Shown here: one piece after another, positions 16,777 to 57,288 of the stretch
Layout of the letters: every line of letters starts with the position of its first letter
How positions within the stretch are numbered: position 1 is the stretch's first letter
From: an uncultured Planctomycetia bacterium
Lineage (GTDB): Bacteria; Planctomycetota; UBA8108
NCBI GenBank assembly: GCA_964392615.1
Contig: CAYMRB010000001.1
Location: 7,343 to 71,342, forward strand
Reading direction: 5' to 3'
DNA: 64,000 nt
The notes under the pieces: generated by a model
What the model saw: the letters and a program-made list of their open reading frames with translations, nothing else
Told to the model about the DNA's origin: nothing
The model's database searches: none
Made by a program: the position numbers and the translations under genes

Positions 16777-16797
16777 AGGTAACTCCGTACGCGGATA

Positions 16798-16826: not shown

Positions 16827-16873
16827 GTCGATCGTAACTGTTCGCCGCCTGACGCGCAGCAGGATCTTCGGCT

Positions 16874-19410: not shown

Positions 19411-19511
19411 CGTGGACTTTTTTTCCCGTCGCGTTTCGACGCGTGCGGCTTGAAAGCGGCGCGCCGATTCCGCATGTTGACGCGAATACGCCCATGTGAG
19501 GGAGACTGGCG

Positions 19512-21011: not shown

Positions 21012-21017
21012 GCTGTC

Positions 21018-22118
21018 GTGAAGGACGGACGCTTCAAGACGATCGGCACGTGGATCGCCGGACTTGTCGGCATCGCTGCGATCGTGCTCGCGATCCTGTG
21101 GATGAGCGGCGCATTCACGCCCGGACGCATCGACCCGGGAATCCTCCCGCCGCCCGCCGGCTTGCCACAGCCGAAGAGCGTCGCGACGGTCGCGTCGCAA
21201 ACCGTGCCCGAGTGGTACGAGGCGGTCGGCACCGTGCGATCGGCCGTCGAGGCGCGCATCGCGCCCCAGGTGACGGGGCGAATCATCGACATCGCCGTCG
21301 AGGAGGGCAGCGCGGTCTCGAAGGGCGACATCATCGCATCACTCGACGATGAGGCGTTCCGCGCGCGCCTCGAGCAGGCTCGCAGCGGCGTGCGATCGGC
21401 CGAGGCGACCTTCGAGCAGGCCGCGTCGAGCCATGCGCGAATCCGCCAGCTGATCGCGAAGGAAGCGGCGACGACGGAGCAGCTCGAGGCCGCCGCAGCG
21501 CTGGAGAAGCAAGCCGACGCCGCCGTCGAGTCTGCGCGCCAGAAGCTCGAGGAGGCGCGCGTCGCGCTCGGCTACACGCGCATCGCGTCGCCCCTGAGTG
21601 GCGTCGTCGCGCGGCGCGAGTCGGACTCGGGCGACCTCGCATGGCCTGGTCGCACGCTCGTCGTCGTCCACGATCCGAGCCGCTTGCGTCTCGAGGCGAG
21701 CGTACGCGAAGGGTTGATCGGCGGCGTCGCGGTCGGTCGCACGGTCGAAATCTGGATCACGGCGCTGTCGAAGACGCTGCCCGGCTCGATTGACGAGATC
21801 GTGCCGTCGGGCGATCCGGTCAGCCGTAGCTTCGTCGTCAAGGCGAGCCTGCCCGCGGAGGCCGTCGCGGACGTGTATCCGGGCATGTTCGGCAAGCTGC
21901 GACTGCGCACCGGAGAGCGGCAAGCGATGATGGTGCCGGCCGACGCGGTGACGACGGTCGGTCAGCTCGACACCCTGCTCGTCAAGCAGGGCGAGCGCTG
22001 GTTGCGGCGGTACGTGACCGTCGGCGAACGCCGTGGCGACGAGATCGAGATCCTGTCCGGGCTGTCCGGCGGCGAGACGATCGGGCTTGCAGGAGGTGAT
22101 GATCGTGTCGACGAATGA
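21018..22118 (+). CDS. RND efflux periplasmic adaptor (MFP, HlyD-like)
   Basis: The start is GTG, preceded by GAGGAG. It has an N-terminal TM anchor, a coiled-coil hairpin (EQARSGVRSAEATFEQAAS...) and beta-barrel/MP domains (GYTRIASPLSGVV). It overlaps the RND gene start. Confidence 0.85.
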   Translation: MKDGRFKTIGTWIAGLVGIAAIVLAILWMSGAFTPGRIDPGILPPPAGLPQPKSVATVASQTVPEWYEAVGTVRSAVEARIAPQVTGRIIDIAVEEGSAVSKGDIIASLDDEAFRARLEQARSGVRSAEATFEQAASSHARIRQLIAKEAATTEQLEAAAALEKQADAAVESARQKLEEARVALGYTRIASPLSGVVARRESDSGDLAWPGRTLVVVHDPSRLRLEASVREGLIGGVAVGRTVEIWITALSKTLPGSIDEIVPSGDPVSRSFVVKASLPAEAVADVYPGMFGKLRLRTGERQAMMVPADAVTTVGQLDTLLVKQGERWLRRYVTVGERRGDEIEILSGLSGGETIGLAGGDDRVDE

Positions 22119-25100
22119 CGCGCCCAAAGGCCTCATCGCACGGCTCGTCACGACGTTCCTGGAGGGCCGGCTCGCGATCCTGATGGTCGCGGCTGCGCTC
22201 GCGCTCGGCGTCGCGGCGGTGCTGTTGACGCCCCGCGAGGAAGATCCGCAGATCGTCGTGCCGCTCGCCGATATCCACGTGCGCTTTCCGGGCGCGAGCG
22301 CCGAGGAGGTCGAGAAGCTCGTCGCGACGCCGTTGGAGCGGCTCCTGTGGCAGATCGATGGCGTCGAGTACGTCTACTCCGTCTCGAGCCGCGACGCGGC
22401 GGTCGTCACGGTACGCTTCTTCGTCGGCGAAGATCGCGAGCGGTCGCTCGTCAAGCTGCACAATCGCATCGCGTCGCACATCGATCAGGCGCCTCCCGGT
22501 GTCACGGGCTGGGTGATCCGCCCGATCGAGATCGACGACGTCCCGATCGTCACGTTCACGCTCTACTCGAAGCGCTACGACGATCACGAGCTGCGCCGCA
22601 TCGGCGAGGAAACTCTCGCGCGGCTCGAGTCGGTCGAGGACATCTCGCGCACGCGGATCGTCGGCGGCCGGCGCAGCGAGGTGCGGGTCGAGCTCGACCG
22701 CGAGCGTCTCGCGTCGCGCGGACTGTCGGCGCTCGAGGTCGTGAAGGCGCTCGAGGTCGCTGACGCATCGATGACGGCCGGCAGCTTCGATCGAGGCGAC
22801 CGCCGCGTGAGAGTCGACAGCGGGCCGTTCCTGACGCGAGTCGAGGACGTCCAAGGCCTCGTCGTCGGCGCGCACGATGGCAGACCGGTGTACGTCGAAG
22901 ACGTCGCCACGATCAAGGAACGACCGGAAGAGCCGCAGAGCTACACGCGCATCGGCATCGGCCCTGCGGCGACCGATGCGGCCGGCGAGCCGGGTGAAAC
23001 GTATCGCGCGGTCACGCTCGCGGTCGCGAAGAAGAAGGGCACGAATGCGGTCGCTGTCGCAAACGCCGTCATCGCGCGCATGGAGGAGCTGCGGCGCGAT
23101 GTGATCCCGTCGGAGGTAGACGTGCGCGTCACGCGCAATCAGGGCGAGAACGCTGACGCGAAGGTGAACGAGCTCCTGTCGTCGCTCCTGTTCGCGATGG
23201 TCTCGGTCGTCGGACTCCTGCTCCTGACGCTCGGGTGGCGCGAAGGGCTGATCGTCGCGCTGGCGGTGCCGATCAGCTTCTCGCTCGCGCTGTTCGTCAA
23301 TCTGATCTTCGGGTTCACGATCAACCGCGTCACGCTGTTCGCGCTCATCCTGACGCTCGGCCTCGTCGTCGATGATCCGATCACGAACGTCGACAACATC
23401 CAGCGACACATCCTGCTGCGTCGGCGTCGGCCGCGCGCGGCGACGCTGTTCGCCGTCAGCGAGGTGCTGCCGCCGGTGATCCTGTCGACGTTGACGATCA
23501 TCGTGTCGTTCCTGCCGATGTTCTTCATCACCGGCATGATGGGGCCGTACATGGGGCCGATGGCCGTCAACGTGCCGCTGACGGTGACGTTCTCGACGGT
23601 CGCGGCGATCTGCATCGTGCCGTGGGCCGCGTATCGGCTGCTGCGCAAGAAGGGGCGCGACACGGATGCGGAGGAAGCGGGAGAACCCGACAGCGCGGAC
23701 GCGGGCAGCACGTCCGCCACGACCGGCGCGACGTCCGCAGACATGGCGGCTGCCGGCAGTCGCTCGCTGCTCGCGCGAACCTATCGCGCCATCGTCGCGC
23801 GGTTCCTCGACTCGCGCCCGATGCGATGGGGCTTGATCGGCGGCATCGTCGTGCTGCTCGGGCTGTCGGGATACCTGCCGCTCGGCCGTCATGTGCCGAT
23901 GAAGATGCTGCCGTTCGACAACAAGAGCGAGCTCGGGCTGCTCATCGACCTCGACGAGGGCACGACGCTCGAGGCGGCCGACGCGGTCGTGCGCGACTTC
24001 GAGCGCTACCTGTTCCGGGTGCCGGAGGTCGAGGACTTCGAGTCGTACGTCGGCACGTACAGTCCGATCGACTTCAACGGACTCGTGCGCCACTACTACT
24101 TCCGCACGCAGCCGCACCTCGCGGACATTCGCATCAACCTCGCACCGAAGGAGCTGCGCCGACAGCAGAGCCACGAGATCGCGTTGCGCTTGCGCAAGGA
24201 CATCGAGGCGATCGCGGCGCGACACGGCGCGGTCGTGACGATCCTCGAGACGCCGCCCGGTCCGCCGGTGTTCTCGGGCATCGTCGCCGAGCTCTACGGG
24301 CCGGCGGATCTCGGTTGGGATGGTCTCGTCGCGGAGTCGCGCGCCGTGATGGATCGCATGCGCGAGGAGCCGGGTGTCGTCGACGTCGATCGCACGGTAC
24401 CGGCGAACCACAAGAGGCTGCGCTTCGTGCTCGACAAGGAAAAGGCCGGGCTGCACGGCATCGCGACCGACAGCGTCGTCCGGACGTTGCGCGTCGTACT
24501 CGACGGGATCGATCCGGCCACGGTCCACCGTGCGGGCGAGCGCGCGCCGCTGGCGGTGCACGTCGGGCTGGCGCGTGACAAGCGATCCGGCGTCGCGGAG
24601 CTCGGACGCGTCGCGGTGAAGGGCTCGCGGGGCGAGCTCGTGCCGCTCGATGAGATCGGCGCGTTCGAGGAGGTGCCCGCCGACGTGCCGATCTACCACA
24701 AGAACCTGCGCCGCGTCGTCTTCGTCTACGGCGAGACGGCCGGGCTGCCGCCGGCGGAAGCGGTGATCGACCTCGGCGCGCACTTCCGCGAGCAGCCGCT
24801 CGCACGTGGCGTCGAGATCGACTGGGCAGGCGAAGGCGAGTGGGACATCACGCTGCGCGTCTTCCGCGACCTCGGGCTCGCGTTCGGCGCGGCGATGATC
24901 GGCATCTACATCCTGCTCGTCATCCAGACGAAGTCGTTCGTGATGCCGATGATCATCATGAGCGCCATCCCGCTGACCGCGATCGGCATCCTGCCGGGCT
25001 TCTGGCTGCTCAATCTCGTCTTCGACAACGTCTACGGGCCGGTCGGCGGCTACGCCAATCCGGTGTTCTTCACCGCGACCGCGATGATCGGCATGATCGC

Positions 25101-25398
25101 GCTCGGCGGCATCGTCGTGCGCAACTCGGTCGTGCTGATCGAGTTCATCCAGGGCGCGCTCGCAGACGGAATGCCGTTGCGCGAAGCGATCCTCGAGAGC
25201 GGCGTCGTCCGCATGCGACCGATCCTGCTGACCGCGGCGACGACGGGTCTCGGCGCGTGGCCGATCACGCTCGACCCGATCTTCTCCGGTCTCGCATGGG
25301 CGCTGATCTTCGGGCTCGTCGCGTCGACGGCGTTCACGCTGATCGTCATTCCGGTGGTGTACCGGATGGTGTACGGACGTAACGCGGAGGCAAGCTGA
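22099..25398 (+). CDS. RND family efflux transporter (AcrB/CzcA-like permease)
   Basis: About 1100 aa with 12-TM RND topology and two large periplasmic loops. Typical TM4/TM10 segments are present (LIFGFTINRVTLFALILTLGLVVDDPI, VRMRPILLTAATTGLGAWP). The real start is at ATG 22099 or GTG 22105, just after AGGAGG at 22091-22096. The listed start 22033 overlaps the MFP gene. Confidence 0.9.
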   Translation: MIVSTNDAPKGLIARLVTTFLEGRLAILMVAAALALGVAAVLLTPREEDPQIVVPLADIHVRFPGASAEEVEKLVATPLERLLWQIDGVEYVYSVSSRDAAVVTVRFFVGEDRERSLVKLHNRIASHIDQAPPGVTGWVIRPIEIDDVPIVTFTLYSKRYDDHELRRIGEETLARLESVEDISRTRIVGGRRSEVRVELDRERLASRGLSALEVVKALEVADASMTAGSFDRGDRRVRVDSGPFLTRVEDVQGLVVGAHDGRPVYVEDVATIKERPEEPQSYTRIGIGPAATDAAGEPGETYRAVTLAVAKKKGTNAVAVANAVIARMEELRRDVIPSEVDVRVTRNQGENADAKVNELLSSLLFAMVSVVGLLLLTLGWREGLIVALAVPISFSLALFVNLIFGFTINRVTLFALILTLGLVVDDPITNVDNIQRHILLRRRRPRAATLFAVSEVLPPVILSTLTIIVSFLPMFFITGMMGPYMGPMAVNVPLTVTFSTVAAICIVPWAAYRLLRKKGRDTDAEEAGEPDSADAGSTSATTGATSADMAAAGSRSLLARTYRAIVARFLDSRPMRWGLIGGIVVLLGLSGYLPLGRHVPMKMLPFDNKSELGLLIDLDEGTTLEAADAVVRDFERYLFRVPEVEDFESYVGTYSPIDFNGLVRHYYFRTQPHLADIRINLAPKELRRQQSHEIALRLRKDIEAIAARHGAVVTILETPPGPPVFSGIVAELYGPADLGWDGLVAESRAVMDRMREEPGVVDVDRTVPANHKRLRFVLDKEKAGLHGIATDSVVRTLRVVLDGIDPATVHRAGERAPLAVHVGLARDKRSGVAELGRVAVKGSRGELVPLDEIGAFEEVPADVPIYHKNLRRVVFVYGETAGLPPAEAVIDLGAHFREQPLARGVEIDWAGEGEWDITLRVFRDLGLAFGAAMIGIYILLVIQTKSFVMPMIIMSAIPLTAIGILPGFWLLNLVFDNVYGPVGGYANPVFFTATAMIGMIALGGIVVRNSVVLIEFIQGALADGMPLREAILESGVVRMRPILLTAATTGLGAWPITLDPIFSGLAWALIFGLVASTAFTLIVIPVVYRMVYGRNAEAS

Positions 25399-25422: not shown

Positions 25423-26607
25423 TCACTCGCTCTCCGGTTCCAGCGTCCGTATCAGGCAATCGAGGAACTCGCGGCGGTAGGAGTCGCGACGTAGGTCGGC
25501 CTCCTTCGCCTCGCGGGCGAGGCCGCGAACCGCGTCGAAACGCTGGGCCTGGATCAGGTGGCCGGTCCAGGTTCTCAGGAGGAGGTCGCAGTCCTGCCAC
25601 TGGCCGCGGGCGTACTCGGGGTGCAGCTTCGGGTCGTTGATCGCGTCGAAGGCATCCTTCGCGAGCTCGTCGCGGCCAGCACCGGGCAGCGCAGCGCGCA
25701 GCTCGCCGATCTTCATGGCCAGGCGGTCGGCCGGCGACAGGTCCGCGTCGGCCAGCGCGACGTAACCCGCCGGCGAGAGCGTGCGGCAGAACTGCCGACG
25801 CGCGCTCTGGAGCGCCTCGTCGGCCGCGCTCGTGGACGGGAGAGCTCGACCGCCGTCGATCCGCAGGTCCTCGAGCTCGTAGACGAGCCGCTTCTTCTGC
25901 GGGCGGCTGCTCAAGAACAGGAGATAGACGCCCGGCTCGAGGCTGTCAGCGCCCTCGAGCGGGAACGATAGACTCGGGGCGTAGGCGCGCCCTGCCTCGC
26001 TCGCCGCGTGCAGATGCCAGAATAGGTGCCCGTCGCGGATGCCGGCCTCCGCCTCGTAGGTCTCGCCCACGAGGAAATCGGGGTTCTCGTCGTACTGCGT
26101 ACTGCGAGACTCCCACGAATCGGTCTCGGCTCGCCGGTATCCGATGACAGCCGAGTGGAGATGGGCGAGGCTTCCTCCGTGCTTCACCAGAGAGAAGGAG
26201 AGCAGCGTTCCGTCCGGAGGCCACGGCGCCGGAGCGCCCGGTCCGGCCGGGATGAGGTACAGAGTCACCTGACTGTCGTAGTCCGCCTTGCAGACGCAGC
26301 CGCGCCAGGTCAGCCGGAACGCGGCGGGATCGTCGATCTCGACGCGGACGCTCAACGCGATCCCCGGATGGCACGAGGACAGCTCCACCTCCTGCTGCTC
26401 CGTCGAGAGCGAGTTCCCGCGAAGGCGCACGGCGAGAGGATGGTCGATCCGCAGAGGAAGCGGCGTCGACGCAGCACGGAACGTCGACGCGGGCCGTGGC
26501 GAGCTGCCCGTACGGGGCTCGCAAGCGACGAGCACCCCGATCAGGACGCCGAGGACTCCTAAGGCGAACGGTCGAATCCGGGGTGATGGGACGCGCTCAC
26601 TCTGCAT
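25423..26607 (-). CDS. hypothetical lipoprotein (signal peptide with lipobox LVAC)
   Basis: 394 aa with N-terminus MQSERVPSPRIRPFALGVLGVLIGVLVAC and balanced composition. It overlaps the upstream kinase gene by 11 bp, so it is probably the last gene of the sigma-kinase operon. I found no recognisable domain. Confidence 0.5.
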   Translation of the reverse strand: MQSERVPSPRIRPFALGVLGVLIGVLVACEPRTGSSPRPASTFRAASTPLPLRIDHPLAVRLRGNSLSTEQQEVELSSCHPGIALSVRVEIDDPAAFRLTWRGCVCKADYDSQVTLYLIPAGPGAPAPWPPDGTLLSFSLVKHGGSLAHLHSAVIGYRRAETDSWESRSTQYDENPDFLVGETYEAEAGIRDGHLFWHLHAASEAGRAYAPSLSFPLEGADSLEPGVYLLFLSSRPQKKRLVYELEDLRIDGGRALPSTSAADEALQSARRQFCRTLSPAGYVALADADLSPADRLAMKIGELRAALPGAGRDELAKDAFDAINDPKLHPEYARGQWQDCDLLLRTWTGHLIQAQRFDAVRGLAREAKEADLRRDSYRREFLDCLIRTLEPESE

Positions 26608-29509
26608 CGATGCCGTACACCCTCACCGCGTCGCCCACGACGACGAGCTCGTCCGACCCGTCGCCGTCGAGCTCACAGAAACACGCCTCTTGCACGACCC
26701 GGGCGCCGACCAGCGGCATGCGGGCGACCCGGCCATCGCGGAGGAACACGTGCACCTCGACCCAGGAGAGCTCGCTCGACGAGCCCACCGCCGGGTGCAC
26801 TGCCAGGCAAACCGCGCGCCCAGCCACTTGCCCGGATCGGGAGAAGGCGACGCGCGTTCCGGGGACGGGCGGCGCGAGGAAACTCAGTCGCGGAGCGCTC
26901 TCGCCAGTCCTCAACAGGTACGAGCCAGGCCGGGGGCCGCGGGGCGCGTCACGGCCGAAGACCCGCGGCTCGAAGGCGTCGTCCGCACTGGCGAGAAAGA
27001 CGCCGTCGGGCACGCCGTCGAGGTCGAAGTCGATCGCGCTCGCCGCCTGGACGAAGCCGAGCGGCCGCTCCCAGATCGGAGCGTAGCGGCCGAGCCACGG
27101 ATCCCGCTCGAGAATCACCGTCCGGTACGCCTCCCACTTGCCGTAGTGGACGAGGAGCCGGGGCGACCGGTCGCCAACGGTCCGCGGCAAGACGGCGATC
27201 GCGTCGACGTCCCAGCCGCCATCGCCGCTCGCATCCTCGTGTCCTCGACCCCACAGGTGGCGCGCCTCGAGCTTTGTCGCGTCCCCGGCAAGACGACGGA
27301 AGTGCCACAGGCTGGGGTCCGTGTGATAGTTGCCGAGCAAGAGGCCCGGGCGGGGCGCGTCGTCGAGCGCACCGGGCAGCGCGACCGCGACCATCGAGCT
27401 TCGGCGCGCGGTAGCTCCCTGGACGCCCGATAGCCTGTAGGCGACGTCGACCGCTCCGGAGACATCGACTCGCAGGATCGCGACGCGGTCGTTGGCGGCG
27501 CCGTTCGGCCCCGGCACGGCGCTGTCCTCGAGGTACAGCGCCCAGGCAGCGGGTGGAGTGTCGGGGGGCTCGTCACTCGCGGCGACCATCGTCGCGATGC
27601 CGGACGCGAAGTCCTCGGTGTCTCCGTTCTCCCGAAAGATGTTCCGTGGCAGCTCGATCGGCGTCAGCTCGACCGGCGCCAGGTCGTTCGCGCCGAGGGT
27701 CTTCCCGTGCTGTCGCCGCAGCGCCTGCGGGCTCGAGAGCCCAAGGCGGAACAGCTCGTTGTCGCGAAGCAGGCTGCCGATCGCGAGCAGCAGAGTCGAC
27801 GGCTGACGGGGCGGCACAGGGCACACCGCGTAGCACTGCGTTCTCTCCGGAAGCCGAAGCTCGATCGGTACGCCGAGCGCGTCCGACACGTCCAGGAGCG
27901 CGCGCGCCTTCTCCGCGCTGTCGCCGCGCCCGGCCGCCAGGTCGGCGAGAATCTCCCGTCCCCGCTGTCGTGCGGCGCCGTCGCCGCCGGGCGCCAGACA
28001 GGCGCGCATCTCGAGGAATCTCCAGGCGCCGTCCTCGTCGTCGCTCCGTCCGGCCTCGCGGAGCAGATCGCGAGCGTCGTCGTGGTCGCCGCGTAGGGAC
28101 GCGCTCCGCGCCAGGGCTCGCAGTACGCGCGAGCGCTGCGGCCCGCGCAGTTTGGCATGCAGGCGGGAGAGATCCTCGACGGTCGACCGCGCCGCCTTGT
28201 CGGGATCGTCCGCCCGGCGATCGAGCTCATGCGCGACGACCGCGAGATCGAGCTCCTGCTGGATCAACATCTGACGATAGCGGAAGGTCAACCACCCCGC
28301 GGTCGCGACGAGGACGACAACCGCGGTGGCGAGCGACGCGACGAGCATGCGGTGACGCGCCCGCCAGCGCACGAGTCGCATCAGCAGGCTCGGCGGCCGC
28401 GCCAGGATGGGCTCGCCGCTCAGGTGTCTGCGGATGTCCGCAGCGAGCTCGGCGGCCGAGCCGTAGCGCTCGGCGGGGTCCTTCTTCAGAGTCTTCGCGA
28501 GAACGAGGTCGACGTTGCCCCGCAGCTCGCGCCGATGCTCGCTCGGCCTGGCAGGCGTTTCGTCCCGGATGATCCGCGCGGCCTCGAGGATCGCCTTGCC
28601 GTCGAGCTCGTACGGCGGCCGACCGCAGAGGAGCTCGTAGCCGATGACGCCGAGGGCGTAGACATCCGATCGCGTGTCGATCGCTGCCGGGTCGCCGCTG
28701 GCCTGCTCGGGGCTCATGTAGGCGAGCGTGCCGATGAGCTGACCGGTGCGCGTGTGCATCGACGTCGCCTGCAGATCGGAGTTCGTCGCGCGCGCGACGC
28801 CGAAATCGAGGACCTTCGGCTGACCGTCGTCCTCGACGAGGATGTTGCCGGGCTTGAGATCGCGGTGGATCACCCCGCGCTGGTGCGCGTACTGCACCGC
28901 GTCGGCGACCGCCGCGAGCAGCTCGAGGATCCGCTGCGCTCCGAGACTCCACGTCCGGACGTACTCGTCGAGCGGTACGCCCTGGACGTACTCCATCGCG
29001 AAGAACGGCCGCGGCCCGGAGTCGGTCCCGACGGCGCCCGCCTCGTAGATCTGCGCGATGCCCGAGTGCTTCAGGAGACCGAGGACCTGCGCCTCGTACT
29101 TCAGCCGTTGGACGAGCTCGTCGGAGCCGGCGCCGGGGCGGACGAGCTTCAGGGCGACGACGCGCCCGAGCCTCTCCTGCTCGGCCTCGTAGACGACGCC
29201 CATGCCGCCCTCGCCGAGGACCGAGAGCACGCGGAAGCCGGCGATCCGGTCGCCGATGGCCGGGACGGAGGCGGCAAGCTCGGCCGGAGCTTCCGGCTCG
29301 GCCCCGATCAGATCGCCCCAAGTCGGCGGCGGCGCGCCGGCGAGCTCGCCGACGCGGCTTCCCAGCTCGAGGTGCTCCTCGACTTTGCGGCGCAACGCCG
29401 TGTTCTCGCAGCACGCGTCATTCAGAAACGCTGCGCGCTTGTCAGCAGGAAGCTCGCGCGCCGCCAGGAAGAGATCGACGAAGAAGTCGGAAGACTCGCC
29501 GGTCGCCAT
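26597..29509 (-). CDS. ECF-associated Ser/Thr protein kinase with a TM segment and a large extracytoplasmic C-terminal region
   Basis: The start is at the internal Met, MATGESSDFFVDLFLAARELPADKRAAFLNDACCENTALRRKVEEHLEL. This is the conserved N-terminal sigma-partner module seen in ECF-linked kinases. Hanks kinase motifs follow (VALKLV, HRDLKPGNILV, DFGVA, SPEQ), then a TM segment (MLVASLATAVVVLVATAGWLTF) and about 580 aa of extracellular sequence with D-x-D-G-D-G (FG-GAP/VCBS-like) motifs. The upstream 81 codons of the listed ORF are Arg-rich junk that read through the sigma gene. Confidence 0.9.
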   Translation of the reverse strand: MATGESSDFFVDLFLAARELPADKRAAFLNDACCENTALRRKVEEHLELGSRVGELAGAPPPTWGDLIGAEPEAPAELAASVPAIGDRIAGFRVLSVLGEGGMGVVYEAEQERLGRVVALKLVRPGAGSDELVQRLKYEAQVLGLLKHSGIAQIYEAGAVGTDSGPRPFFAMEYVQGVPLDEYVRTWSLGAQRILELLAAVADAVQYAHQRGVIHRDLKPGNILVEDDGQPKVLDFGVARATNSDLQATSMHTRTGQLIGTLAYMSPEQASGDPAAIDTRSDVYALGVIGYELLCGRPPYELDGKAILEAARIIRDETPARPSEHRRELRGNVDLVLAKTLKKDPAERYGSAAELAADIRRHLSGEPILARPPSLLMRLVRWRARHRMLVASLATAVVVLVATAGWLTFRYRQMLIQQELDLAVVAHELDRRADDPDKAARSTVEDLSRLHAKLRGPQRSRVLRALARSASLRGDHDDARDLLREAGRSDDEDGAWRFLEMRACLAPGGDGAARQRGREILADLAAGRGDSAEKARALLDVSDALGVPIELRLPERTQCYAVCPVPPRQPSTLLLAIGSLLRDNELFRLGLSSPQALRRQHGKTLGANDLAPVELTPIELPRNIFRENGDTEDFASGIATMVAASDEPPDTPPAAWALYLEDSAVPGPNGAANDRVAILRVDVSGAVDVAYRLSGVQGATARRSSMVAVALPGALDDAPRPGLLLGNYHTDPSLWHFRRLAGDATKLEARHLWGRGHEDASGDGGWDVDAIAVLPRTVGDRSPRLLVHYGKWEAYRTVILERDPWLGRYAPIWERPLGFVQAASAIDFDLDGVPDGVFLASADDAFEPRVFGRDAPRGPRPGSYLLRTGESAPRLSFLAPPVPGTRVAFSRSGQVAGRAVCLAVHPAVGSSSELSWVEVHVFLRDGRVARMPLVGARVVQEACFCELDGDGSDELVVVGDAVRVYGIDAE

Positions 29510-29514
29510 GTTCG

Positions 29515-30084
29515 TCACTGACCCGCGCGCCGGACGCGAGCCAGGAGGACCGCCAAGCCCGCCTCGAGGTCGCGCTGCACCGTCTTCGTCGAGACGTCGA
29601 GCTGCTCGGCAATCTCGCCGTGCTTCAGCCCGCCGAAGAACTTCAGCTCGATGATCTGGCCCAACCGCCGCGATCGTTCGCCGCCGCGTTCGAGCTCCGC
29701 GAGAGCCTGGCTCACCTCGTCGGGTTCCATCTCGAGTTCGTCGCGACGCCACCCCTTGTCGCGCAGCTCATCCCTGGCCCGCGCGAAGAATCGAAAGCGC
29801 ACCTTCCGGCGCTTGGCGTGATTGATGAGAATCTGCCGCATGCGCCGCACGGCGATGGCGAAGAATTGCCGCCGGTCCTGCCATTCGATCTCGTCGCTTC
29901 CGAAGAGACGCAGGTACGTCTCGTGGACGAGATCGCGGGGGCTCAGGGTGTGGCCATCTCGCTCGTTGCGAATCAGTCGACCGGCACGAGACAGAAGCTC
30001 CTCGTAGACGAGGGACACGGCCTGTTCCCTCGAGACGGAGTCTCCGGCCGCCGCCGCTCGCAGGAGTCGCGTGATCTCTCGCAT
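29515..30084 (-). CDS. ECF sigma-70 factor, TIGR02999 (Sig70_X6)-like, the type genomically paired with Ser/Thr kinases
   Basis: The N-terminus MREITRLLRAAAAGDSVSREQAVSLVYEELLSRA...GHTLSPRDLVHETYLRL matches the characteristic family opening (EITxLL...GD...LxxLVYxELRR...GHTLQ...LVHEAYLRL). The sigma-4 HTH is LKFFGGLKHGEIAEQLDVSTKTVQRDL. The stop lies 5 bp before the kinase start. Confidence 0.85.
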   Translation of the reverse strand: MREITRLLRAAAAGDSVSREQAVSLVYEELLSRAGRLIRNERDGHTLSPRDLVHETYLRLFGSDEIEWQDRRQFFAIAVRRMRQILINHAKRRKVRFRFFARARDELRDKGWRRDELEMEPDEVSQALAELERGGERSRRLGQIIELKFFGGLKHGEIAEQLDVSTKTVQRDLEAGLAVLLARVRRAGQ

Positions 30085-30116
30085 CGTCCGCGCTGCCCTC
30101 GGGGCCCTCATCTACA

Positions 30117-30145
30117 CCGGGGACCATTGTCGGAAAAACTTGTCC
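30117..30145 (-). promoter_or_regulatory. candidate sigma70-like promoter of the ECF sigma gene (-35 TTGGAA, 17-nt spacer, -10 GACAAT) inside an AT-rich island containing the imperfect palindrome GGAAAAAC-N6-GTTTTCC
   Basis: Read on the minus strand the sequence is TTGGAAAACGGACAAGTTTTTCCGACAAT, lying 33-61 nt upstream of the sigma ATG. It is the only AT-rich stretch in the 168-bp divergent intergenic region. Two GAGGG boxes sit just before the ATG. Identified by eye only. Confidence 0.3.
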
Positions 30146-30252
30146 GTTTTCCAAGGCCTCGGTTGCCACCCCGAGCGAGGAACGGGCCCGGACCTCGCTT
30201 GTGGACTTCATGTCGATCAGTTGAACCCTGTCTCTCAGGAGTTGCCTTCACC

Positions 30253-33200
30253 ATGCATACGGTGAACCGCCCGCACCGCCGCGGTGCATTCGTGCTGCTA
30301 TATGCAGCTGTCATGACCCTGGTGTTCCCGGCCCTGCGCGCCGAAGTGTCAGTCGTGGACCTCGTTCAGGAGACACCGAATCGCGCCGTGCGGGACGTCG
30401 GCTTCTTCGAGCACGAGGGTGTCAGGTACTACTGGCAGGCCTCCGGAAAAGTCGGCGCCACCGTCTTCACGTGGAGCGAGGCTGCCGGGGCCTACGAGGA
30501 GCACCAGGATCTGCTCGCGGGCGCGGAGGTTTCCGACCTCGAACTCTTCGTCATCGACGGCGAGCTCTACATCGCATTGGCCCACGAGGCGAACGGCTCG
30601 AACACCGTCATGCCGTCGCACATCCTCCGGCTGGATCCCGTGACCGGGATCTTCGTCTCGATCCAGACCATCACGACGATGCACGCGACGCGCTGGGCGC
30701 ACTTCGAGATCGCGGGCGAGCACTTCCTCGCGGTCGCGAATGCGGTGGACGGTTCGTCATATGGAGTGATGTCGAGGGTCTATCGCTGGGACGGCGTCAC
30801 GGAGCAATTCGTCCTCCACCAGGAGATTCCCACCCAGACCGCCTCCGACTGGGAAGCCTTCCGCATCGGCAGTCGGTCCTTCCTCGCCGTTGCGAATGCG
30901 GGAATGGGGCCGCGTGGCGGTCCCGTCGTCTACGACGTCGACTCGGTCGTCTATGAGTGGAATCCGTCAGCCGGTTCGGGAGGGCTCTTCGAGGAGTATC
31001 AGCGGATCGCCACGCACGCGGGAAAGGACTGGGAACACCTCGAGCTCGACGGAGTTCCCCACCTCGCCCTGACCAACCTGGCGACCGGCGCGACCGGCTC
31101 GGCTGACTACAACGTCGACTCCAGGCTCTACCGTTGGGACGGCGACGCTCTGCCGGCAGGCGAGTTCGTCGAGATTCAGTCCTTCCCGACCCACGGGGGG
31201 CTGCGCGCTCACGCCTTCTCCGTCGGCAACGAGCGGTATCTCGCGATTGCGAACACCTACGACGGCTCGAGCTCGTACCAGGACACCGTTCTCTATCGCT
31301 GGAACGGCTACGAGTTCATCGAGGCCGAGAGGATCGCGATGGGGTCGACCCGAGGCCTCGCCACAACGCTTCTCGACGGCCGCACGCTCCTCGCACTCGG
31401 GCGATACCACACCGGCGCGAGCTACGACGGCATGCAGCCGATCTACGCGGTGCGGCAGGTGGACGAGAAGATCGTCTTCCAGCACCAGGACACCGGCGGC
31501 AATTGGGACATCTGGATCATGAACCCGGATGGCAGCGACCTGACGCGTCTGACCGACGACCCGGCGGTCGAGGAACACCCGATGATCTCGCCCGACGGGA
31601 AGACGATCGTATTCGGTCGGCGCAACGGTACGTATACGCCCCAGATTTGGACCATGGACATCGACGGAGGCAATCAGACGCAGCTGACGAACGAGTCCAC
31701 GTACGCCTACAACCCGGTCTGGAGCCCCGACGGCAAGACGGTCTACTACAGCATCAACAACTTCTACCCGCACGGTCTCATGGCGATCGCCCCCGACGGG
31801 TCGAATCACCGCGTGATTCACGCGACGGCGGGTGGCACGTATCCGATCGTCAGCCCCGACGGCAGGTACGTCCTGCACGGTTCGGTGCCGAGCTCGAACC
31901 CGAACAGCTACGACATGATCATCACGCCGGTCGACGGCGGGCCGCAGATCAACCTCAGCGCGCTGACCGGGCTTTCCGGCTACGAGCGCCAGGGATGCAA
32001 GTTCGCGTGGGGGCACGACGACATCATCCTGTTCGCCGGTCACGAGCCGTCGTGGGCCGGGTACGATTTCGACATCTACTGGGTGAAGGCCGACGGCAGC
32101 GCGTGGGGCACCATTCGCGATGACGCAGCGGGATCGTCGTATCCCTGCTGGTCGCCGGATGAGCAGCGTATGGTCTTCAACTCGTTCTCGGGCTCGACGA
32201 GCACCGAGGAGATCTACGTCATGAACCGCGACGGCACGGGGCTCTACCGGCTGACGAACCGGCCCGGCCGGGACAGCTACCCGCACTGGGGCAAGGCGGT
32301 GCGTACCTCGACCGACACGGTGCCGCCCGTCGTCGAGATCGTCTTCCCCGCGCCGGAGACGCTGCTTCCCGGGACTCAGGTGAACGTGATCGTGAACATC
32401 GTGGATGACAGTGCGACGACGATCACGTGTTCCCACGCGGGGCTCGGCGGAACGCTTCCCGCAGGCGGGGGCGAGCTCAGCGGCACGATCACGCTCGTCG
32501 AGGGAGCAAACGTCATCACGGTCAACGCGGAGGACACGGGCGGCCTCGTCGGCGGGACGAGCATCACGGTGTACGTCGACACGACGGCGCCGGGCGCCAT
32601 TGTTCTCTCGCCGGTCGACGGCGCCGCAACCGGCCAGTCTCCGGCAACGATCAGCGTCGAGGTCTCCGATGTGAACGATCTCGTTGTCGACATCGGCGGC
32701 ACCATCGTTTCGGTGCCGGCCGGGACCACCGTTGTCAGCGTGGACGTCCCTCTCGCCGAGGGCTCGAACGAGATCCCGATGACGGTCACGGACGCGGCCG
32801 GCAACTCGACGAGTCTCGTGCACACGCTGGTGCTCGACACGCAGGCGCCGATCATCGGGCCCGACACGCCGCAAGACGGTGACGTCTTCGGACCGGGCGA
32901 GTCGCCCATCGCGGTCGTGATGACCATCGACGACGACACGGCCGTCGACTACACGGTGTCGCCGTCCGGCACCTCCGGCAGCTTCCCGAGCGGCAGCGGC
33001 ACGACCGTCGACGCCGTGGACCTCGTCGAGGGCTGGAACGTCATCACCATCACGGCCACCGACGCCGCGGGCAACACGAGCCAGGCCTTCGTCACGGTGA
33101 TCTTCGACACGACGGCTTCGAACATCCTGACCGTTTCGCCGGCTGACGACGACCCGCTGCGGGACGTGATCGACTGGCACGTCGAGGCCGACGACCCGTC

Positions 33201-34308
33201 GCCGGGATCGGGCCTCGACCGCGTCGAGCTCTTCGTCGACGGCGTGCTCCATGCGACGCTCACCACCGCCCCGTTCGAGATCGCTTTCGACACGACCCTC
33301 CTCGTCGACGGACTCCACGTGCTCGAGGCCAAGGCCGTTGACGGCGTGGGCAACGAGTCGACCTCGGTCGTTTCGGTACTGGTCGACAACACGGCCCCAC
33401 AGGTCTGGATTCCGTTGCCTCTGGCCGGCGCCTACCTCGCGGGCACCTTCGCGCTCGAGGCGGAGTTCTTCGACGAGGGCGCGGGCGTCGCGTCGCTGGA
33501 GATGTCCGTGGCTGGTCTGTCCCCGACCGGAGACGGTTCGGCGACGTACGATCCGCCGCTGGCCACGGGGATCGCGACCGGCGAGGAGGACTCCACTCGC
33601 TGGCCGGACGGGCCGCTCAGTTTCTCGGTGGCGGTCGTCGATCTCGCCGGAAACACGGCGTCTGCGAACGTCATCGTCCAGATCGACAACGCCGCGCCCG
33701 TCGGCTGTATCGCCGAGCCCGCTTCGGGCAGCTCGGTCGCCGGGATGATCGACCTCAGGGCCGAGGTCGACGATCCGAACCTCGCGCAGGTCCAGATCGT
33801 GGTCGACGGAATCGTCGTTGCCGAGTCGACGACCTCGCCGCTGGTCGTTCCCTTCGACACGACGTCGCGGCTCGACGGCGCGATGGAGATCGAGGTGCTC
33901 GCGACCGACCTCGCCGGCAACACGACCTCGTGCACATCGAGCGTGACGGTCGACAACCTCGCGGTACGCTTCGTTCCGCGCACGCTGAACCTCAAGAGCA
34001 AGGGGAAGGGCTGTGCGCACGTCGACATCACCGGAGTGAACGTTGCGCTCCTGGATCCTCTGGAGGGCGCCGGCCTCGAGCTGTGGATTCCCGGTGGCAG
34101 CCCCGTGGCAGCGCGGTTCGACTGCGGGCCGCAGGGGGGCGACCCCGGAGAGCGCAAGGTCAGCTTCTCCCGGCAAGACGTGATCGCGTCGATCCGCGCG
34201 GGGATCGCGGCCGGCGAGATCTCTGGTGACACGGTGACCCTCGAGATGGTCGCGAGCGGCGGGGACGACGTGCTCGGCACCGACCGGATCCGCATTCGAG
34301 GGAACTGA
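30253..34308 (+). CDS. large secreted multi-domain protein: seven EPTP/EAR-type repeats (beta-propeller), a PD40/TolB-like beta-propeller and several Ig-like (Big/cadherin-like) domains
   Basis: The start is at the internal Met MHTVNRPHRRGAFVLLYAAVMTLVFPALRAEV. The listed upstream 210 codons are antisense junk that overlap the sigma gene. Seven units have the pattern F..Q.I....A.DWE.F.I....FLAVAN.........S.VYRW.G (approx. 30330-31450). PD40 repeats are SPDGKTIVF, WSPDGKTVYY and SPDGRYV (approx. 31480-32250). At least five Ig-like modules carry V.TDAAGN(S/T) signatures (approx. 32300-34300). Confidence 0.8.
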   Translation: MHTVNRPHRRGAFVLLYAAVMTLVFPALRAEVSVVDLVQETPNRAVRDVGFFEHEGVRYYWQASGKVGATVFTWSEAAGAYEEHQDLLAGAEVSDLELFVIDGELYIALAHEANGSNTVMPSHILRLDPVTGIFVSIQTITTMHATRWAHFEIAGEHFLAVANAVDGSSYGVMSRVYRWDGVTEQFVLHQEIPTQTASDWEAFRIGSRSFLAVANAGMGPRGGPVVYDVDSVVYEWNPSAGSGGLFEEYQRIATHAGKDWEHLELDGVPHLALTNLATGATGSADYNVDSRLYRWDGDALPAGEFVEIQSFPTHGGLRAHAFSVGNERYLAIANTYDGSSSYQDTVLYRWNGYEFIEAERIAMGSTRGLATTLLDGRTLLALGRYHTGASYDGMQPIYAVRQVDEKIVFQHQDTGGNWDIWIMNPDGSDLTRLTDDPAVEEHPMISPDGKTIVFGRRNGTYTPQIWTMDIDGGNQTQLTNESTYAYNPVWSPDGKTVYYSINNFYPHGLMAIAPDGSNHRVIHATAGGTYPIVSPDGRYVLHGSVPSSNPNSYDMIITPVDGGPQINLSALTGLSGYERQGCKFAWGHDDIILFAGHEPSWAGYDFDIYWVKADGSAWGTIRDDAAGSSYPCWSPDEQRMVFNSFSGSTSTEEIYVMNRDGTGLYRLTNRPGRDSYPHWGKAVRTSTDTVPPVVEIVFPAPETLLPGTQVNVIVNIVDDSATTITCSHAGLGGTLPAGGGELSGTITLVEGANVITVNAEDTGGLVGGTSITVYVDTTAPGAIVLSPVDGAATGQSPATISVEVSDVNDLVVDIGGTIVSVPAGTTVVSVDVPLAEGSNEIPMTVTDAAGNSTSLVHTLVLDTQAPIIGPDTPQDGDVFGPGESPIAVVMTIDDDTAVDYTVSPSGTSGSFPSGSGTTVDAVDLVEGWNVITITATDAAGNTSQAFVTVIFDTTASNILTVSPADDDPLRDVIDWHVEADDPSPGSGLDRVELFVDGVLHATLTTAPFEIAFDTTLLVDGLHVLEAKAVDGVGNESTSVVSVLVDNTAPQVWIPLPLAGAYLAGTFALEAEFFDEGAGVASLEMSVAGLSPTGDGSATYDPPLATGIATGEEDSTRWPDGPLSFSVAVVDLAGNTASANVIVQIDNAAPVGCIAEPASGSSVAGMIDLRAEVDDPNLAQVQIVVDGIVVAESTTSPLVVPFDTTSRLDGAMEIEVLATDLAGNTTSCTSSVTVDNLAVRFVPRTLNLKSKGKGCAHVDITGVNVALLDPLEGAGLELWIPGGSPVAARFDCGPQGGDPGERKVSFSRQDVIASIRAGIAAGEISGDTVTLEMVASGGDDVLGTDRIRIRGN

Positions 34309-34309
34309 C

Positions 34310-34978
34310 ATGCGTTTCTTCATCAACGGCTCGAAGACGGGCGCAACAGCGATGATCGCAGCGTGCGGGCTGGCCACCCTCGCCGTGGGAGGATGGCTGG
34401 CGCTCGCGTCCGGTGATCCTGCGAAGAAGACCGATCCGGTCACGGTGGCGCAGGCCGTCGCTGCGACCGATCTCCGAGGCGGCGGCGGTCCCACCTGCGA
34501 AGACCTCGCCTGGGACGGCATGGACCGGAGCGCCATGCAGGCCGTCCTCGAACGGACGCGGTCGGCCACGCACGCGCAGCGCGCCGAGCTCGAGGAGCTC
34601 GCCATGACCGCGCCCCGAGCCGGCGTGCGTGCGCAGGCTCTCCGCTCTCTTGGTCGACTCGGACTCGTGCGTGCGGACTCCGAAGTGGCTGCGCTGCTGA
34701 ACGATCCGAATCCACGCGTGCGTCAAGAGGTCGTGACGGCCCTGGGGCGTGGGGGCGACCCGGCGACCGTCTCCGCTCTGAAGCCGCTTCTCTCCGCTAA
34801 CGCTGATCCGACGCTGCGAGCACTGGCGATCCAGGCTCTCGGCCGGATCGGTACGAACGAGGCGGATCGGCTCGTGCGGGGAGTGCTGGAGGACTCGAGC
34901 TCGTCGCGTGTCGATCGGGCGTTCGCCCGGGGCGCACTCGCAGAGCTCACCTCGGCCAGCGCTAGCGCAGGCAGCTGA
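34310..34978 (+). CDS. HEAT-repeat (PBS-lyase HEAT-like) protein with an N-terminal hydrophobic anchor
   Basis: The ATG lies 1 nt after the upstream stop. Repeats are ...LNDPNPRVRQEVVTALGRGGDPATVSALKPLLSANADPTLRALAIQALGRIG..., which is the E-Z type HEAT signature. It is co-directional with the giant gene and probably co-transcribed. Confidence 0.7.
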   Translation: MRFFINGSKTGATAMIAACGLATLAVGGWLALASGDPAKKTDPVTVAQAVAATDLRGGGGPTCEDLAWDGMDRSAMQAVLERTRSATHAQRAELEELAMTAPRAGVRAQALRSLGRLGLVRADSEVAALLNDPNPRVRQEVVTALGRGGDPATVSALKPLLSANADPTLRALAIQALGRIGTNEADRLVRGVLEDSSSSRVDRAFARGALAELTSASASAGS

Positions 34979-41664: not shown

Positions 41665-42049
41665 GACACCGGACCTTTGGGTTGGGATCTTGTCGGCGGG
41701 CGAGATGCCCGGAGATGTGTGCGCCGCGGGCGCGGCAGAACCATCATCGGTCGATAAGCCGCTCGGCTTCAGTGGTTACCGGTTGCGCGGACGCAGAACG
41801 GGAAGTTCGCGGTTCTTATCGGACAGCGCGATCGGAATCGTGCCGCAAAGGGACGGGGGTCGTCGCCAGCTGCGAGGATATCGGAAGGCCGTGAGGCGAT
41901 TCGCTCGTCGCGGTCAGGGCGGCGATCACCTCGGCCGTTCTGCCGGTGTCCTCGCGACCGAACATCCGGCAGAAGGGAAACTACGGCGAACCTCTCGCGA
42001 CGAGTAGACTGGTGTTCGGTCCCTCCCGCTCTTCCCCGAGGCTCGGTCC

Positions 42050-57279: not shown

Positions 57280-57288
57280 GGGCGACCG

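What the first reader, a model, noticed from the sequence alone, without database searches (positions are those of the whole stretch)
26597..34978. An ECF sigma (TIGR02999-type), Ser/Thr kinase and lipoprotein operon sits divergently next to a 1350-aa EPTP/PD40/Ig surface protein and a HEAT-repeat protein
The sigma factor has the family-specific EITRLL...GHTL...LVHETYLRL opening. The kinase carries the conserved N-terminal sigma-partner module (FxxLFLxARELPxxxRAAFLxxACxxxxALRxxVEEHL) in place of an anti-sigma factor, and it has a single TM segment with a ~580-aa extracytoplasmic domain. A lipoprotein gene overlaps the kinase stop by 11 bp. A giant secreted beta-propeller/Ig protein gene starts 168 bp away on the other strand, with a HEAT protein gene 1 nt behind it. 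This pairing suggests the kinase-sigma module senses or controls production of the surface protein. The signalling logic of kinase-linked ECF sigma factors (phosphorylation in place of anti-sigma sequestration) is still poorly characterised.
Basis: partly seen in the sequence, partly recalled or inferred. Interest (0 to 1): 0.7.

Follow-up and report, generated by a model that had tools for sequence, protein, structure and literature searches.

The report
Sigma-kinase-lipoprotein module beside surface protein
A planctomycete gene cluster pairs a kinase-controlled alternative sigma factor and a lipoprotein co-sensor with a large cell-surface protein; this is a variant of a known signalling type, and one distant relative keeps the same five genes together, so they probably work as a unit.

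Summary
An ECF sigma (TIGR02999/PF07638), a Hanks Ser/Thr kinase and a lipoprotein form a tight minus-strand operon. It lies 168 bp from a divergent EPTP/PD40/Ig secreted protein gene, which is followed 1 nt later by a HEAT gene.

This is the known ECF43-like sigma/kinase kind (EcfP/PknT, EcfK/PknS), which is hugely expanded in Planctomycetota, so it is not new in kind.

1. The kinase ectodomain (helical repeats plus a 7-bladed beta-propeller) is nearly an orphan, with six remote relatives. In all five relatives whose contig shows the downstream gene, the lipoprotein homologue follows, and in one it is fused to the kinase.
2. One relative (L089) also carries orthologues of the surface protein (40% identity over 957 aa) and the HEAT protein, rearranged onto the same strand. 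This supports a five-gene functional unit.
3. Those relatives use a different sigma family and a different kinase N-terminal module. In 77 other loci the N-module tracks the TIGR02999-type sigma (p = 8e-8).
4. This sigma alone, among 44 aligned, lacks the canonical phospho-threonine (SPRD instead of QPTA).

No ECF-type promoter could be shown for the surface gene. The sigma operon has a housekeeping-type promoter.

The parts
29515..30084 (-). ECF sigma factor, 189 aa, TIGR02999/PF07638 type (ECF43-like)
   Evidence: TIGR02999 132.2 bits (cut-off 126.15) and PF07638 109 bits. It is only 31-44% identical to the 43 family sigmas found next to related kinases.
29932..29943 (-). Sigma region 2.2 motif S48-P-R-D51, at the position of the ECF43 phospho-Thr motif (QPTA, STTA, QATE)
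   Evidence: In an alignment of 44 sigmas, all 43 others have Thr at position 3. The window has Arg there and Asp at position 4. The linker KRGG motif is also replaced by RFRFF, and the linker has no Ser/Thr.
26597..29509 (-). Hanks-type Ser/Thr receptor kinase, 970 aa
   Evidence: Pkinase 150 bits with all catalytic motifs and a single TM segment. An identical protein, P0001, occurs in NCBI/JGI metagenome data.
29360..29497 (-). Kinase N-terminal module (residues 5-50, FxxLFLxAxELPxxxRxxFLxxxCxxxxxLRxxVExxL), the candidate sigma-docking module
   Evidence: It is conserved in homologues. It co-occurs with an adjacent TIGR02999-type sigma in 34/47 loci against 3/30 without it. It has no Pfam family.
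28457..29233 (-). Kinase catalytic domain (residues 93-351)
   Evidence: Pfam PF00069. Best PDB matches are PknB at 1e-56 and PknS 9eed at 2e-40.
28283..28354 (-). Transmembrane segment (residues 386-409), preceded by an Arg-rich stretch on the cytoplasmic side
   Evidence: Hydropathy scan.
27875..28204 (-). Ectodomain helical-repeat (TPR-like) part, kinase residues about 436-545
   Evidence: AF2 model, pLDDT 73, pTM 0.79. Weak TPR_12/TPR_4 hits.
26615..27865 (-). Ectodomain 7-bladed beta-propeller, kinase residues about 549-965. This is a near-orphan sensor domain
25423..26607 (-). Lipoprotein, 394 aa (lipobox LVAC, Cys29), overlapping the kinase stop by 11 nt. Candidate co-sensor
   Evidence: Homologues with lipoboxes lie directly after, and overlap, the kinase gene in L086, L087, L089 and L090. 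In P0242 (L085) the homologue is fused to the kinase.
30126..30154 (-). Housekeeping-type promoter candidate for the sigma operon: -35 TTGGAA (30154..30149), 17-nt spacer, -10 GACAAT (30131..30126)
   Evidence: An NANAAT element lies upstream of 20 of 41 family sigma genes, against 7.4 +/- 2.3 in shuffles. This is inference, with no transcript data.
30085..30252 (.). 168-bp divergent intergenic region. It includes an imperfect palindrome at 30169-30204 and the AGGAG ribosome-binding site at 30237-30241
   Evidence: There is no sigma-70 consensus hit by the tool, no Rfam hit and no conservation with the L089 upstream region.
30253..34308 (+). Secreted multidomain protein, 1351 aa: signal peptide, EPTP propeller (about residues 30-404), PD40 propeller, Ig-like domains, and a conserved Cys-containing C-terminal domain
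   Evidence: Pfam. Residues 405-1351 are 40-41% identical and collinear with L089 4892-8593.
34310..34978 (+). HEAT-repeat protein, 222 aa, with an N-terminal hydrophobic segment
   Evidence: HEAT_2 64 bits. It is 43% identical to the HEAT gene that follows the surface orthologue in L089.

Best explanation
This is a five-gene envelope signalling and surface module of a planctomycete.

**Proposed mechanism**
1. The sigma-kinase-lipoprotein operon is probably transcribed by the housekeeping sigma.
2. The membrane kinase senses an extracytoplasmic cue with its helical-repeat plus beta-propeller ectodomain. It acts together with the translationally coupled lipoprotein.
3. The kinase engages the cognate ECF sigma through its N-terminal cytoplasmic module and controls the sigma by phosphorylation.
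4. The activated sigma redirects RNA polymerase to target promoters. The neighbouring surface-protein/HEAT operon is the best candidate target.

**Shown**
- Gene content, gene junctions and domain composition.
- Intact kinase catalytic motifs.
- Conservation of the kinase sensor with the lipoprotein.
- Conservation of all five genes in one distant relative.
- Covariation of the N-terminal module with the sigma family.

**Inferred**
- Physical sensor-lipoprotein and kinase-sigma contacts.
- Phosphorylation of the sigma. If it happens, it is on a site other than the canonical Thr, such as Ser48, or the charge is supplied by Asp51.
- That the surface operon is transcribed by this sigma.
For: - **Family assignments and junctions:**
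- **Near-orphan sensor:** the sensor domain occurs in only six remote relatives.
- **Lipoprotein linkage:** in each relative whose contig shows the downstream gene, a lipobox-bearing homologue follows. It overlaps the kinase stop by 4-14 nt (L086, L087, L089, L090) or is fused to the kinase (P0242 in L085).
- **Five-gene conservation:** L089 carries sigma, kinase, lipoprotein, a PD40/Ig protein (40% identity over 957 aa) and a HEAT protein (43% identity) in a row. The flanking genes, gene orientation and sigma family all differ from the window.
- **N-module and sigma adjacency:** 34/47 against 3/30, Fisher p = 8e-8. Relatives with a TIGR02984-like sigma carry a different N-module.
- **Housekeeping promoter:** housekeeping-type -10 elements are enriched upstream of family sigma genes, including this one. 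This fits a sigma that is made constitutively and switched on after translation, as published for EcfP/PknT and EcfK/PknS (PMC8999054, PMC13147305).
- **Divergent secreted neighbours:** large secreted neighbours are enriched next to family operons.
Against: - No ECF-type promoter was found upstream of the surface gene, and there is no sequence conservation with the L089 upstream region.
- Only one additional locus shares the surface/HEAT pair. L086 and L087/L088, which have the same sensor and lipoprotein, have other neighbours.
- The window itself is rich in large secreted proteins, so chance adjacency is not rare.
- The enrichment against kinases without an adjacent sigma is not significant, p = 0.13.
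- The sigma lacks the canonical phospho-Thr and the linker Ser/Thr, so the phosphorylation step is less certain than in EcfP or EcfK.
- The organism is uncultured and there are no expression data.
Confidence: 0.5

Rival explanations
1. The sigma/kinase/lipoprotein operon is a self-contained signalling module whose regulon lies elsewhere. The surface/HEAT operon is a neighbour only by chance or by inherited synteny, and is transcribed from its own housekeeping or other promoter.
For: - No ECF promoter motif was found, and the upstream region is not conserved with L089.
- L086 and L087 have the same sensor but lack the pair.
- About a quarter of the genes in this window encode large secreted proteins.
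- None of the three nearest EPTP proteins has a sigma/kinase pair next to it.
Against: L089 retains all five genes despite 30-43% protein identity, different flanks, changed orientation and a different sigma/kinase cassette. Divergent secreted neighbours are enriched across the family.
Confidence: 0.25
2. The surface protein and HEAT protein are not, or not only, the output. They are part of the sensory apparatus. The kinase propeller and the lipoprotein would monitor the presence, folding or ligand state of the PD40/Ig surface protein. This would be feedback control, as in other envelope stress systems.
For: - All four partners are predicted to be extracytoplasmic or membrane-anchored.
- The linkage is conserved on the sensor side, while the cytoplasmic sigma/kinase cassette was exchanged.
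- The kinase-lipoprotein fusion in P0242 shows that periplasmic complex formation is plausible.
Against: There is no direct evidence of interaction. L086 and L087 have the sensor and lipoprotein without this surface protein. There is no sequence similarity between the sensor propeller and the EPTP propeller.
Confidence: 0.15
3. This sigma no longer depends on phosphorylation. Asp51 restores the acidic region 2.2 contact to RNA polymerase. The kinase then controls the sigma by binding or tethering it through the N-terminal module, like an anti-sigma factor, or the kinase has other substrates.
For: - The motif is SPRD instead of QPTA, and this is the only sigma of 44 without the Thr.
- There is no Ser/Thr in the linker.
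- The sensor-sharing relatives use sigmas with an acidic xPED/DPVD region 2.2.
- A close kinase homologue (P0037) carries a zf-HC2 anti-sigma-type motif at the same end.
- The literature notes that non-ECF43 kinase-linked groups keep acidic motifs and may work differently (PMC8999054).
Against: - The kinase catalytic motifs are fully intact.
- Ser48, Thr46 and Thr56 remain available as acceptors.
- EcfK (QATE) keeps an acidic residue yet is still phospho-regulated at several sites (PMC13147305).
- Arg50 next to Asp51 may cancel the charge.
Confidence: 0.1

Closest known systems
EcfP/PknT of Vibrio parahaemolyticus (ECF43; Iyer et al. 2020, as summarised in PMC8999054 and PMC8103513)
   Same: An ECF sigma of the PF07638/TIGR02999 type is encoded next to a membrane Hanks kinase with no anti-sigma factor. 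The sigma is made inactive and is switched on by the kinase.
   Different: EcfP has STTA in region 2.2 and its second Thr is phosphorylated. Here the motif is SPRD, with no Thr and an Asp present. The sensor domain, lipoprotein partner and neighbouring genes also differ. I could not align EcfP directly because its sequence is not held.
EcfK/PknS of Xanthomonas citri (ECF43; PMC13147305)
   Same: PknS is a receptor kinase with an approximately 83-aa N-terminal segment of unknown role ahead of the kinase domain, and a periplasmic TPR region. PknS(1-364), PDB 9eed, matches the window kinase over residues 13-363 (E = 2e-40). EcfK keeps an acidic residue (QATE) and uses additional linker phosphosites. 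Its target genes (T6SS) are encoded nearby.
   Different: On its own, the N-terminal similarity to PknS is not significant. The window sigma has neither the T51 equivalent nor a linker Ser/Thr. The ectodomain adds a beta-propeller and a dedicated lipoprotein. The neighbouring genes encode a surface protein and a HEAT protein, not a T6SS.
Other kinase-linked planctomycete ECF groups (ECF59, 61, 62, 217; PMC7826278, PMC8999054)
   Same: The sensor-sharing relatives (L085-L089) pair their kinases with TIGR02984-like sigmas that keep an acidic region 2.2. This fits the published description of these groups.
   Different: The window sigma is not of this type. It has no blastp hit to those sigmas and scores only 18.5 bits on TIGR02984. 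I did not assign the relatives to a numbered ECF group.
Envelope stress systems with a lipoprotein co-sensor (RcsF, NlpE-Cpx; from general knowledge)
   Same: A lipoprotein is genetically coupled to a membrane signal transducer as part of the sensing step.
   Different: There is no homology. The transducer here is a Ser/Thr kinase with an ECF sigma output. The comparison is an analogy only.
LGI1 EPTP and TolB-type PD40 beta-propellers

Membership tests
ECF43-type (TIGR02999/PF07638) kinase-linked ECF sigma | [quoted passage not shown] | tested here: met
   TIGR02999 132.2 bits against a cut-off of 126.15, only just above it. PF07638 109 bits, aligned end to end.
ECF43-type (TIGR02999/PF07638) kinase-linked ECF sigma | Hanks-type Ser/Thr kinase gene adjacent to the sigma gene | tested here: met
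   The kinase ATG lies 5 nt after the sigma stop.
ECF43-type (TIGR02999/PF07638) kinase-linked ECF sigma | No co-encoded anti-sigma factor | tested here: met
   None of the five genes, and none of the flanking genes I scanned, matches an anti-sigma domain.
ECF43-type (TIGR02999/PF07638) kinase-linked ECF sigma | Uncharged region 2.2 motif with the conserved phospho-acceptor Thr (QTTA, STTA, QPTA) | tested here: not met
   The window has S-P-R-D. All 43 other aligned family sigmas have Thr at position 3. The literature gives Thr in 88% of ECF43 members and an acidic residue at position 4 in 15.8% (PMC13147305).
ECF43-type (TIGR02999/PF07638) kinase-linked ECF sigma | Sigma is phosphorylated by the cognate kinase and thereby gains affinity for RNA polymerase | not testable with these tools
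   This needs a kinase assay or phosphoproteomics.
Hanks-type receptor Ser/Thr kinase | Gly-rich loop, VAxK Lys, HRDxKxxN, DFG and SPE/APE motifs, with a TM segment and an ectodomain | tested here: met
   GEGGMG at residue 99, ALK at 119, HRDLKP at 215, DFG at 235, SPE at 266, and one TM segment at 386-409. Pkinase 150 bits.
Bacterial lipoprotein | Signal peptide ending in a lipobox with an invariant Cys | tested here: met
   The sequence is ...GVLIGVLVAC29. The Cys is invariant in the four separate lipoprotein homologues, whose lipoboxes are LSAC, GAGC, LAC and SAC. No dedicated predictor was run.
EPTP / PD40 / bacterial Ig-like multidomain secreted protein | Pfam domain matches above the gathering score, plus a signal peptide | tested here: met
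   EPTP 164 bits, PD40 58.6, Big_7 59.5, Big_13 58.5, Glucodextran_B 72.5. N-terminal hydrophobic segment at residues 10-32.
Sigma-dependent target operon (surface/HEAT transcribed by this sigma) | ECF-type -35/-10 promoter upstream of 30253 that matches the sigma's specificity | tested here: inconclusive
   No motif for this group was available to me. There is no conserved block shared with L089 (local alignment score 16 against 16.7 +/- 2.5 in shuffles). The GGAAC at 30179 is unconfirmed.

The most novel reading that the evidence does not exclude
The extracytoplasmic half of the system forms a conserved sensory and surface unit. That half is the propeller sensor, the lipoprotein, the PD40/Ig surface protein and the HEAT protein. 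During evolution it has been plugged into two different cytoplasmic output cassettes, each made of a kinase N-terminal docking module and its matching ECF sigma family. The N-terminal ~50 residues of these kinases would then be the long-sought sigma-specificity determinant. In this locus the sigma has additionally replaced the phospho-Thr by Arg-Asp, so control would be by docking or release, or by a non-canonical site, rather than by the EcfP-type charge switch.
Probability: 0.2. Interest if true: 0.6.

Novelty: new variant of a known kind. Interest (0 to 1): 0.4.

Why it matters
Kinase-linked ECF sigma factors are among the most abundant but least understood regulators in Planctomycetota. 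Only two pairs, EcfP/PknT and EcfK/PknS, have been studied.

This locus offers three testable points:
1. **A role for the N-terminal kinase segment.** The PknS study left the function of this segment open. Here it covaries with the sigma family rather than with the sensor.
2. **A natural sigma variant.** This sigma lacks the canonical phospho-threonine, which tests how general the charge-switch model is.
3. **A defined candidate input and output set.** The lipoprotein co-sensor and the surface/HEAT operon are conserved across a cassette swap.

None of this is a new kind of system. The organism is an uncultured metagenome lineage, so the value lies in sharpening hypotheses rather than in revealing a new mechanism.

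Tried and rejected
- **Orthologue search with the word-index protein search.** The kinase C-terminus found only itself. The surface protein found only partial domain hits. This search missed the 40%-identical L089 orthologue, so its negatives are weak.
- **Nearest EPTP proteins (P0122, P0123, P0137).** None has a sigma/kinase pair next to it.
- **Metagenome scan with the surface alignment.** The patterns fell in the PD40 repeat and returned only generic PD40 proteins. None had the Ig region, HEAT, lipoprotein or sensor.
- **Promoter search.** The consensus scan found nothing. A GGAAC/GTTGAA resemblance between the window and L089 upstream regions was rejected, because the local alignment score equals that of shuffles. 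There was no Rfam hit.
- **PknS N-terminus.** Sequence similarity of the kinase N-module alone to the PknS N-terminus is not significant.
- **Lipoprotein structure.** The model had pLDDT 44 and was not used.
- **Compositional island.** GC and GC3 of the five genes are ordinary for the window.
Full report
**1. Checking the observation**

- **Sigma factor (29515-30084, minus strand, 189 aa).** It scores 132.2 bits on TIGR02999 (cut-off 126.15) and 109 bits on PF07638. Both alignments start at model position 1. This supports the MREITRLL start over the shorter JGI call for the identical metagenome contig.
- **Kinase (26597-29509, 970 aa).** Its ATG lies 5 nt downstream of the sigma stop. It has a complete Hanks catalytic core (GEGGMG, VALK, HRDLKP, DFG, SPE), one transmembrane segment at residues 386-409, and a 561-aa ectodomain.
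- **Lipoprotein (25423-26607, 394 aa).** Its ATG lies inside the last kinase codons, giving an 11-nt overlap. The product starts with a signal peptide and the lipobox LVAC.
- **Surface protein (30253-34308, plus strand, 1351 aa).** It starts 168 bp from the sigma ATG and has a signal peptide. It carries EPTP (164 bits), PD40, and the Ig-like families Big_7, Big_13 and Glucodextran_B.
- **HEAT protein (34310-34978).** It starts 1 nt after the surface gene's stop.

The only correction is that the ectodomain is about 560 aa, not 580.

**2. Setting**

The flanking genes are an RND efflux operon (19500-25398, convergent on the lipoprotein gene), a URO-D-like gene and a sulfatase. The named kinase homologues come from Planctomycetota or Phycisphaerae MAGs. 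The window holds many other large secreted repeat proteins. This raises the chance of a coincidental neighbour.

**3. The kinase family and its N-terminal module**

A full-length search found 7959 related proteins. Apart from the identical P0001, they cover only about 40% of the query. That part is the N-terminal module plus the kinase domain, at about 50% identity. It is followed by unrelated TPR, WD40 or FGE-sulfatase C-termini. This is a large paralogous family with interchangeable sensors.

I scanned 185,579 species-representative genomes with an alignment of the cytoplasmic part. This returned 80 loci, mostly Phycisphaerae.
- An HMM of residues 5-50 detects the module in 47 of the 77 loci that have enough upstream flank.
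- A TIGR02999-like sigma lies directly upstream in 34 of those 47, but in only 3 of the 30 without the module. Fisher p = 8e-8.
- The loci are not phylogenetically independent, so the p-value is only indicative.

The module has no Pfam family. The PknS study describes an 83-aa N-terminal segment of unknown role in an ECF43-cognate kinase (PMC13147305). PknS (PDB 9eed) matches the window kinase over residues 13-363, but the N-terminal part alone is not significantly similar.

**4. The sigma is an outlier**

I aligned the window sigma with 43 sigmas from those loci. Every other sequence has L-Q-[P/A]-T-A-LVHEAY, which is the ECF43 motif whose Thr is phosphorylated in EcfP and EcfK. The window sigma has L-S-P-R-D-LVHETY. 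Its linker also lacks the conserved KRGG motif and has no Ser or Thr.

The literature reports the Thr in 88% of ECF43 members and an acidic residue at the next position in 15.8% (PMC13147305). The variant is therefore not unprecedented, but it fails one defining feature of the charge-switch model. Ser48, Thr46 and Thr56 remain possible acceptors.

**5. The sensor side**

*Relatives of the sensor.* The word-index search found no relative of the ectodomain. An exhaustive HMMER search of 1.84 billion representatives found six. They share 29-35% identity over the last ~260 residues, and five of them are kinases of about 940 aa.

*The lipoprotein travels with the sensor.* Their genomic contexts were informative. 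In L086, L087/L088, L089 and L090, the gene that follows and overlaps the kinase gene encodes a homologue of the window lipoprotein. These share 25-29% identity with E-values from 1e-3 to 1e-18, and each has its own lipobox. In P0242 (L085) the homologous region is fused to the kinase C-terminus without a signal peptide (E = 6e-16). The sensor and the lipoprotein therefore travel together and very probably act together.

**6. The link to the surface protein**

L089 is a Logan contig with 70% G+C. After sigma, kinase and lipoprotein it carries two further genes on the same strand:
- a 1233-aa PD40/Glucodextran_B/Big_7/Big_13 protein, 40-41% identical and collinear with window residues 405-1351 (596 bits);
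- a HEAT protein 4 nt further on, 43% identical to the window HEAT protein.

The flanking genes differ, and the orientation relative to the sigma operon differs. The N-terminal domain of the surface protein also differs: the EPTP propeller is absent from L089. Keeping five genes together across this much divergence argues for a functional unit.

Against this, L086 has small unknown and dockerin proteins upstream. L087/L088 place the sigma in a divergent operon with a 912-aa CarboxypepD_reg/Ig protein. The specific surface/HEAT partner is therefore not universal.

At the family level, TIGR02999-type sigma-kinase operons have a divergent neighbour of at least 500 aa with a signal peptide, within 600 bp, in 10 of 32 loci. 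The background is 41 of 386 genes in the same loci (odds ratio 3.8, p = 0.0024). Against kinases without an adjacent sigma (4 of 31) the difference is not significant (p = 0.13). These neighbours are non-homologous FG-GAP, BNR, Kelch/Ig/dockerin, subtilase/Ig and DUF11 proteins. The gene calling behind these counts was crude.

**7. Cassette swap**

The sigmas of L085-L089 are not TIGR02999-like.
- Their best model is TIGR02984 (85-127 bits, below its cut-off), and they give no blastp hit to the window sigma.
- They keep an acidic region 2.2 (xPED, DPVD).
- Their kinases are only 35-39% identical in the catalytic domain. They carry a different N-terminal module (GEILDELIAALHDG..PLP..EELRARFPDLA).

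The N-terminal module therefore follows the sigma family, not the sensor. This is the strongest evidence here that it is the sigma-specific part of the kinase. One close kinase homologue (P0037) has a zf-HC2 anti-sigma-type motif at the same end (24.3 bits, cut-off 22.2). No TIGR02999 sigma lies next to it.

**8. Promoters**

An NANAAT -10-like element lies upstream of 20 of 41 family sigma genes, against 7.4 +/- 2.3 in shuffles and 11 on the opposite strand. It is often preceded by TTG about 17 nt upstream. The window has TTGGAA-17 nt-GACAAT (30154..30126, minus strand). This fits constitutive, housekeeping transcription of a sigma that is controlled after translation.

For the surface gene I found no convincing promoter.
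- The consensus scan found nothing.
- There is no Rfam element.
- There is no conservation with L089.
- The palindrome at 30169-30204 is unexplained.

The group's target motif was not available to me, because Iyer et al. 2020 is not held. The central claim, that the sigma drives the surface gene, remains untested.

**9. Verdict**

This is a member of the known ECF sigma/Ser-Thr kinase kind with three variant features:
- no canonical phospho-Thr;
- a dedicated lipoprotein co-sensor with a near-orphan propeller sensor;
- a conserved but rearranged link to a PD40/Ig surface protein and a HEAT protein.

The statement that the mechanism is poorly characterised is outdated.

Interest is moderate at 0.4. 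The find is ordinary in kind, but it gives a concrete, testable handle on how these kinases recognise their sigma factors.

Noticed in passing
window 30340-31464: The EPTP (epitempin/EAR) beta-propeller, a domain known mainly from vertebrate LGI/TSPEAR proteins, forms the N-terminal part of the surface protein. It is absent from the L089 orthologue, which has an unrelated 284-aa N-terminus. The propeller therefore looks like a lineage-specific domain addition.
   Followed up: partly
L085 2021-5986 (P0242): A kinase with the same sensor domain is fused at its C-terminus to a homologue of the window lipoprotein and has no intervening signal peptide. This is a Rosetta-stone-type fusion.
   Followed up: yes
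L085-L089 sigma genes and kinase N-termini: The sensor-sharing relatives pair a TIGR02984-like sigma, with an acidic region 2.2, with a different kinase N-terminal module (GEILDELIAALHDG..PLP..EELRARFPDLA). This second module was not found in any of the 80 loci of the first family.
   Followed up: partly
P0037 residues 8-36; P0002 residues 11-36: Two close kinase homologues carry an HxxxCxxC zinc-finger motif of the anti-sigma type (zf-HC2) at the N-terminus. In P0037 it sits ahead of the usual N-module, and no TIGR02999 sigma is adjacent in L171.
   Followed up: partly
window 30169-30204: An imperfect 21-nt-arm palindrome (CCCCGAGCGAGGAACGGGCCCGGACCTCGCTTGTGG) lies between the putative sigma promoter and the surface gene. 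It could be an operator or a 5'-UTR hairpin. It remains unexplained.
   Followed up: no
window 2813-9028, 42008-45643, 45653-48646, 54247-57279, 57280-63999: The window encodes many other very large secreted repeat proteins: an alpha-2-macroglobulin, nine CarboxypepD_reg repeats, FG-GAP, cohesin/dockerin, and beta-helix/TSP3. None has its own sigma/kinase pair in the window.
   Followed up: partly
window 14209-17268 (-): A 1020-aa protein whose only Pfam hit is the hydrazine synthase alpha-subunit middle domain (HZS_alpha, 81 bits). It lies next to ferredoxin/pyridine-nucleotide oxidoreductase genes.
   Followed up: no
L001 (JGI Ga0118727_1006818) against the window: The public gene calls for the identical contig start the sigma, surface and lipoprotein genes later (167, 1331 and 335 aa). 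This removes the family N-terminus of the sigma and both signal peptides.
   Followed up: yes
L089 8598-9224 and 4892-8593: The L089 HEAT protein starts with a twin-arginine-like motif (TRRTAFLG), and the L089 surface protein has RR ahead of its hydrophobic segment. The window homologues have no RR.
   Followed up: no
method note: The word-index homology search for the surface protein did not return the 40%-identical, 957-aa-long L089 orthologue. Negative results from that tool for this locus are therefore not reliable.
   Followed up: yes
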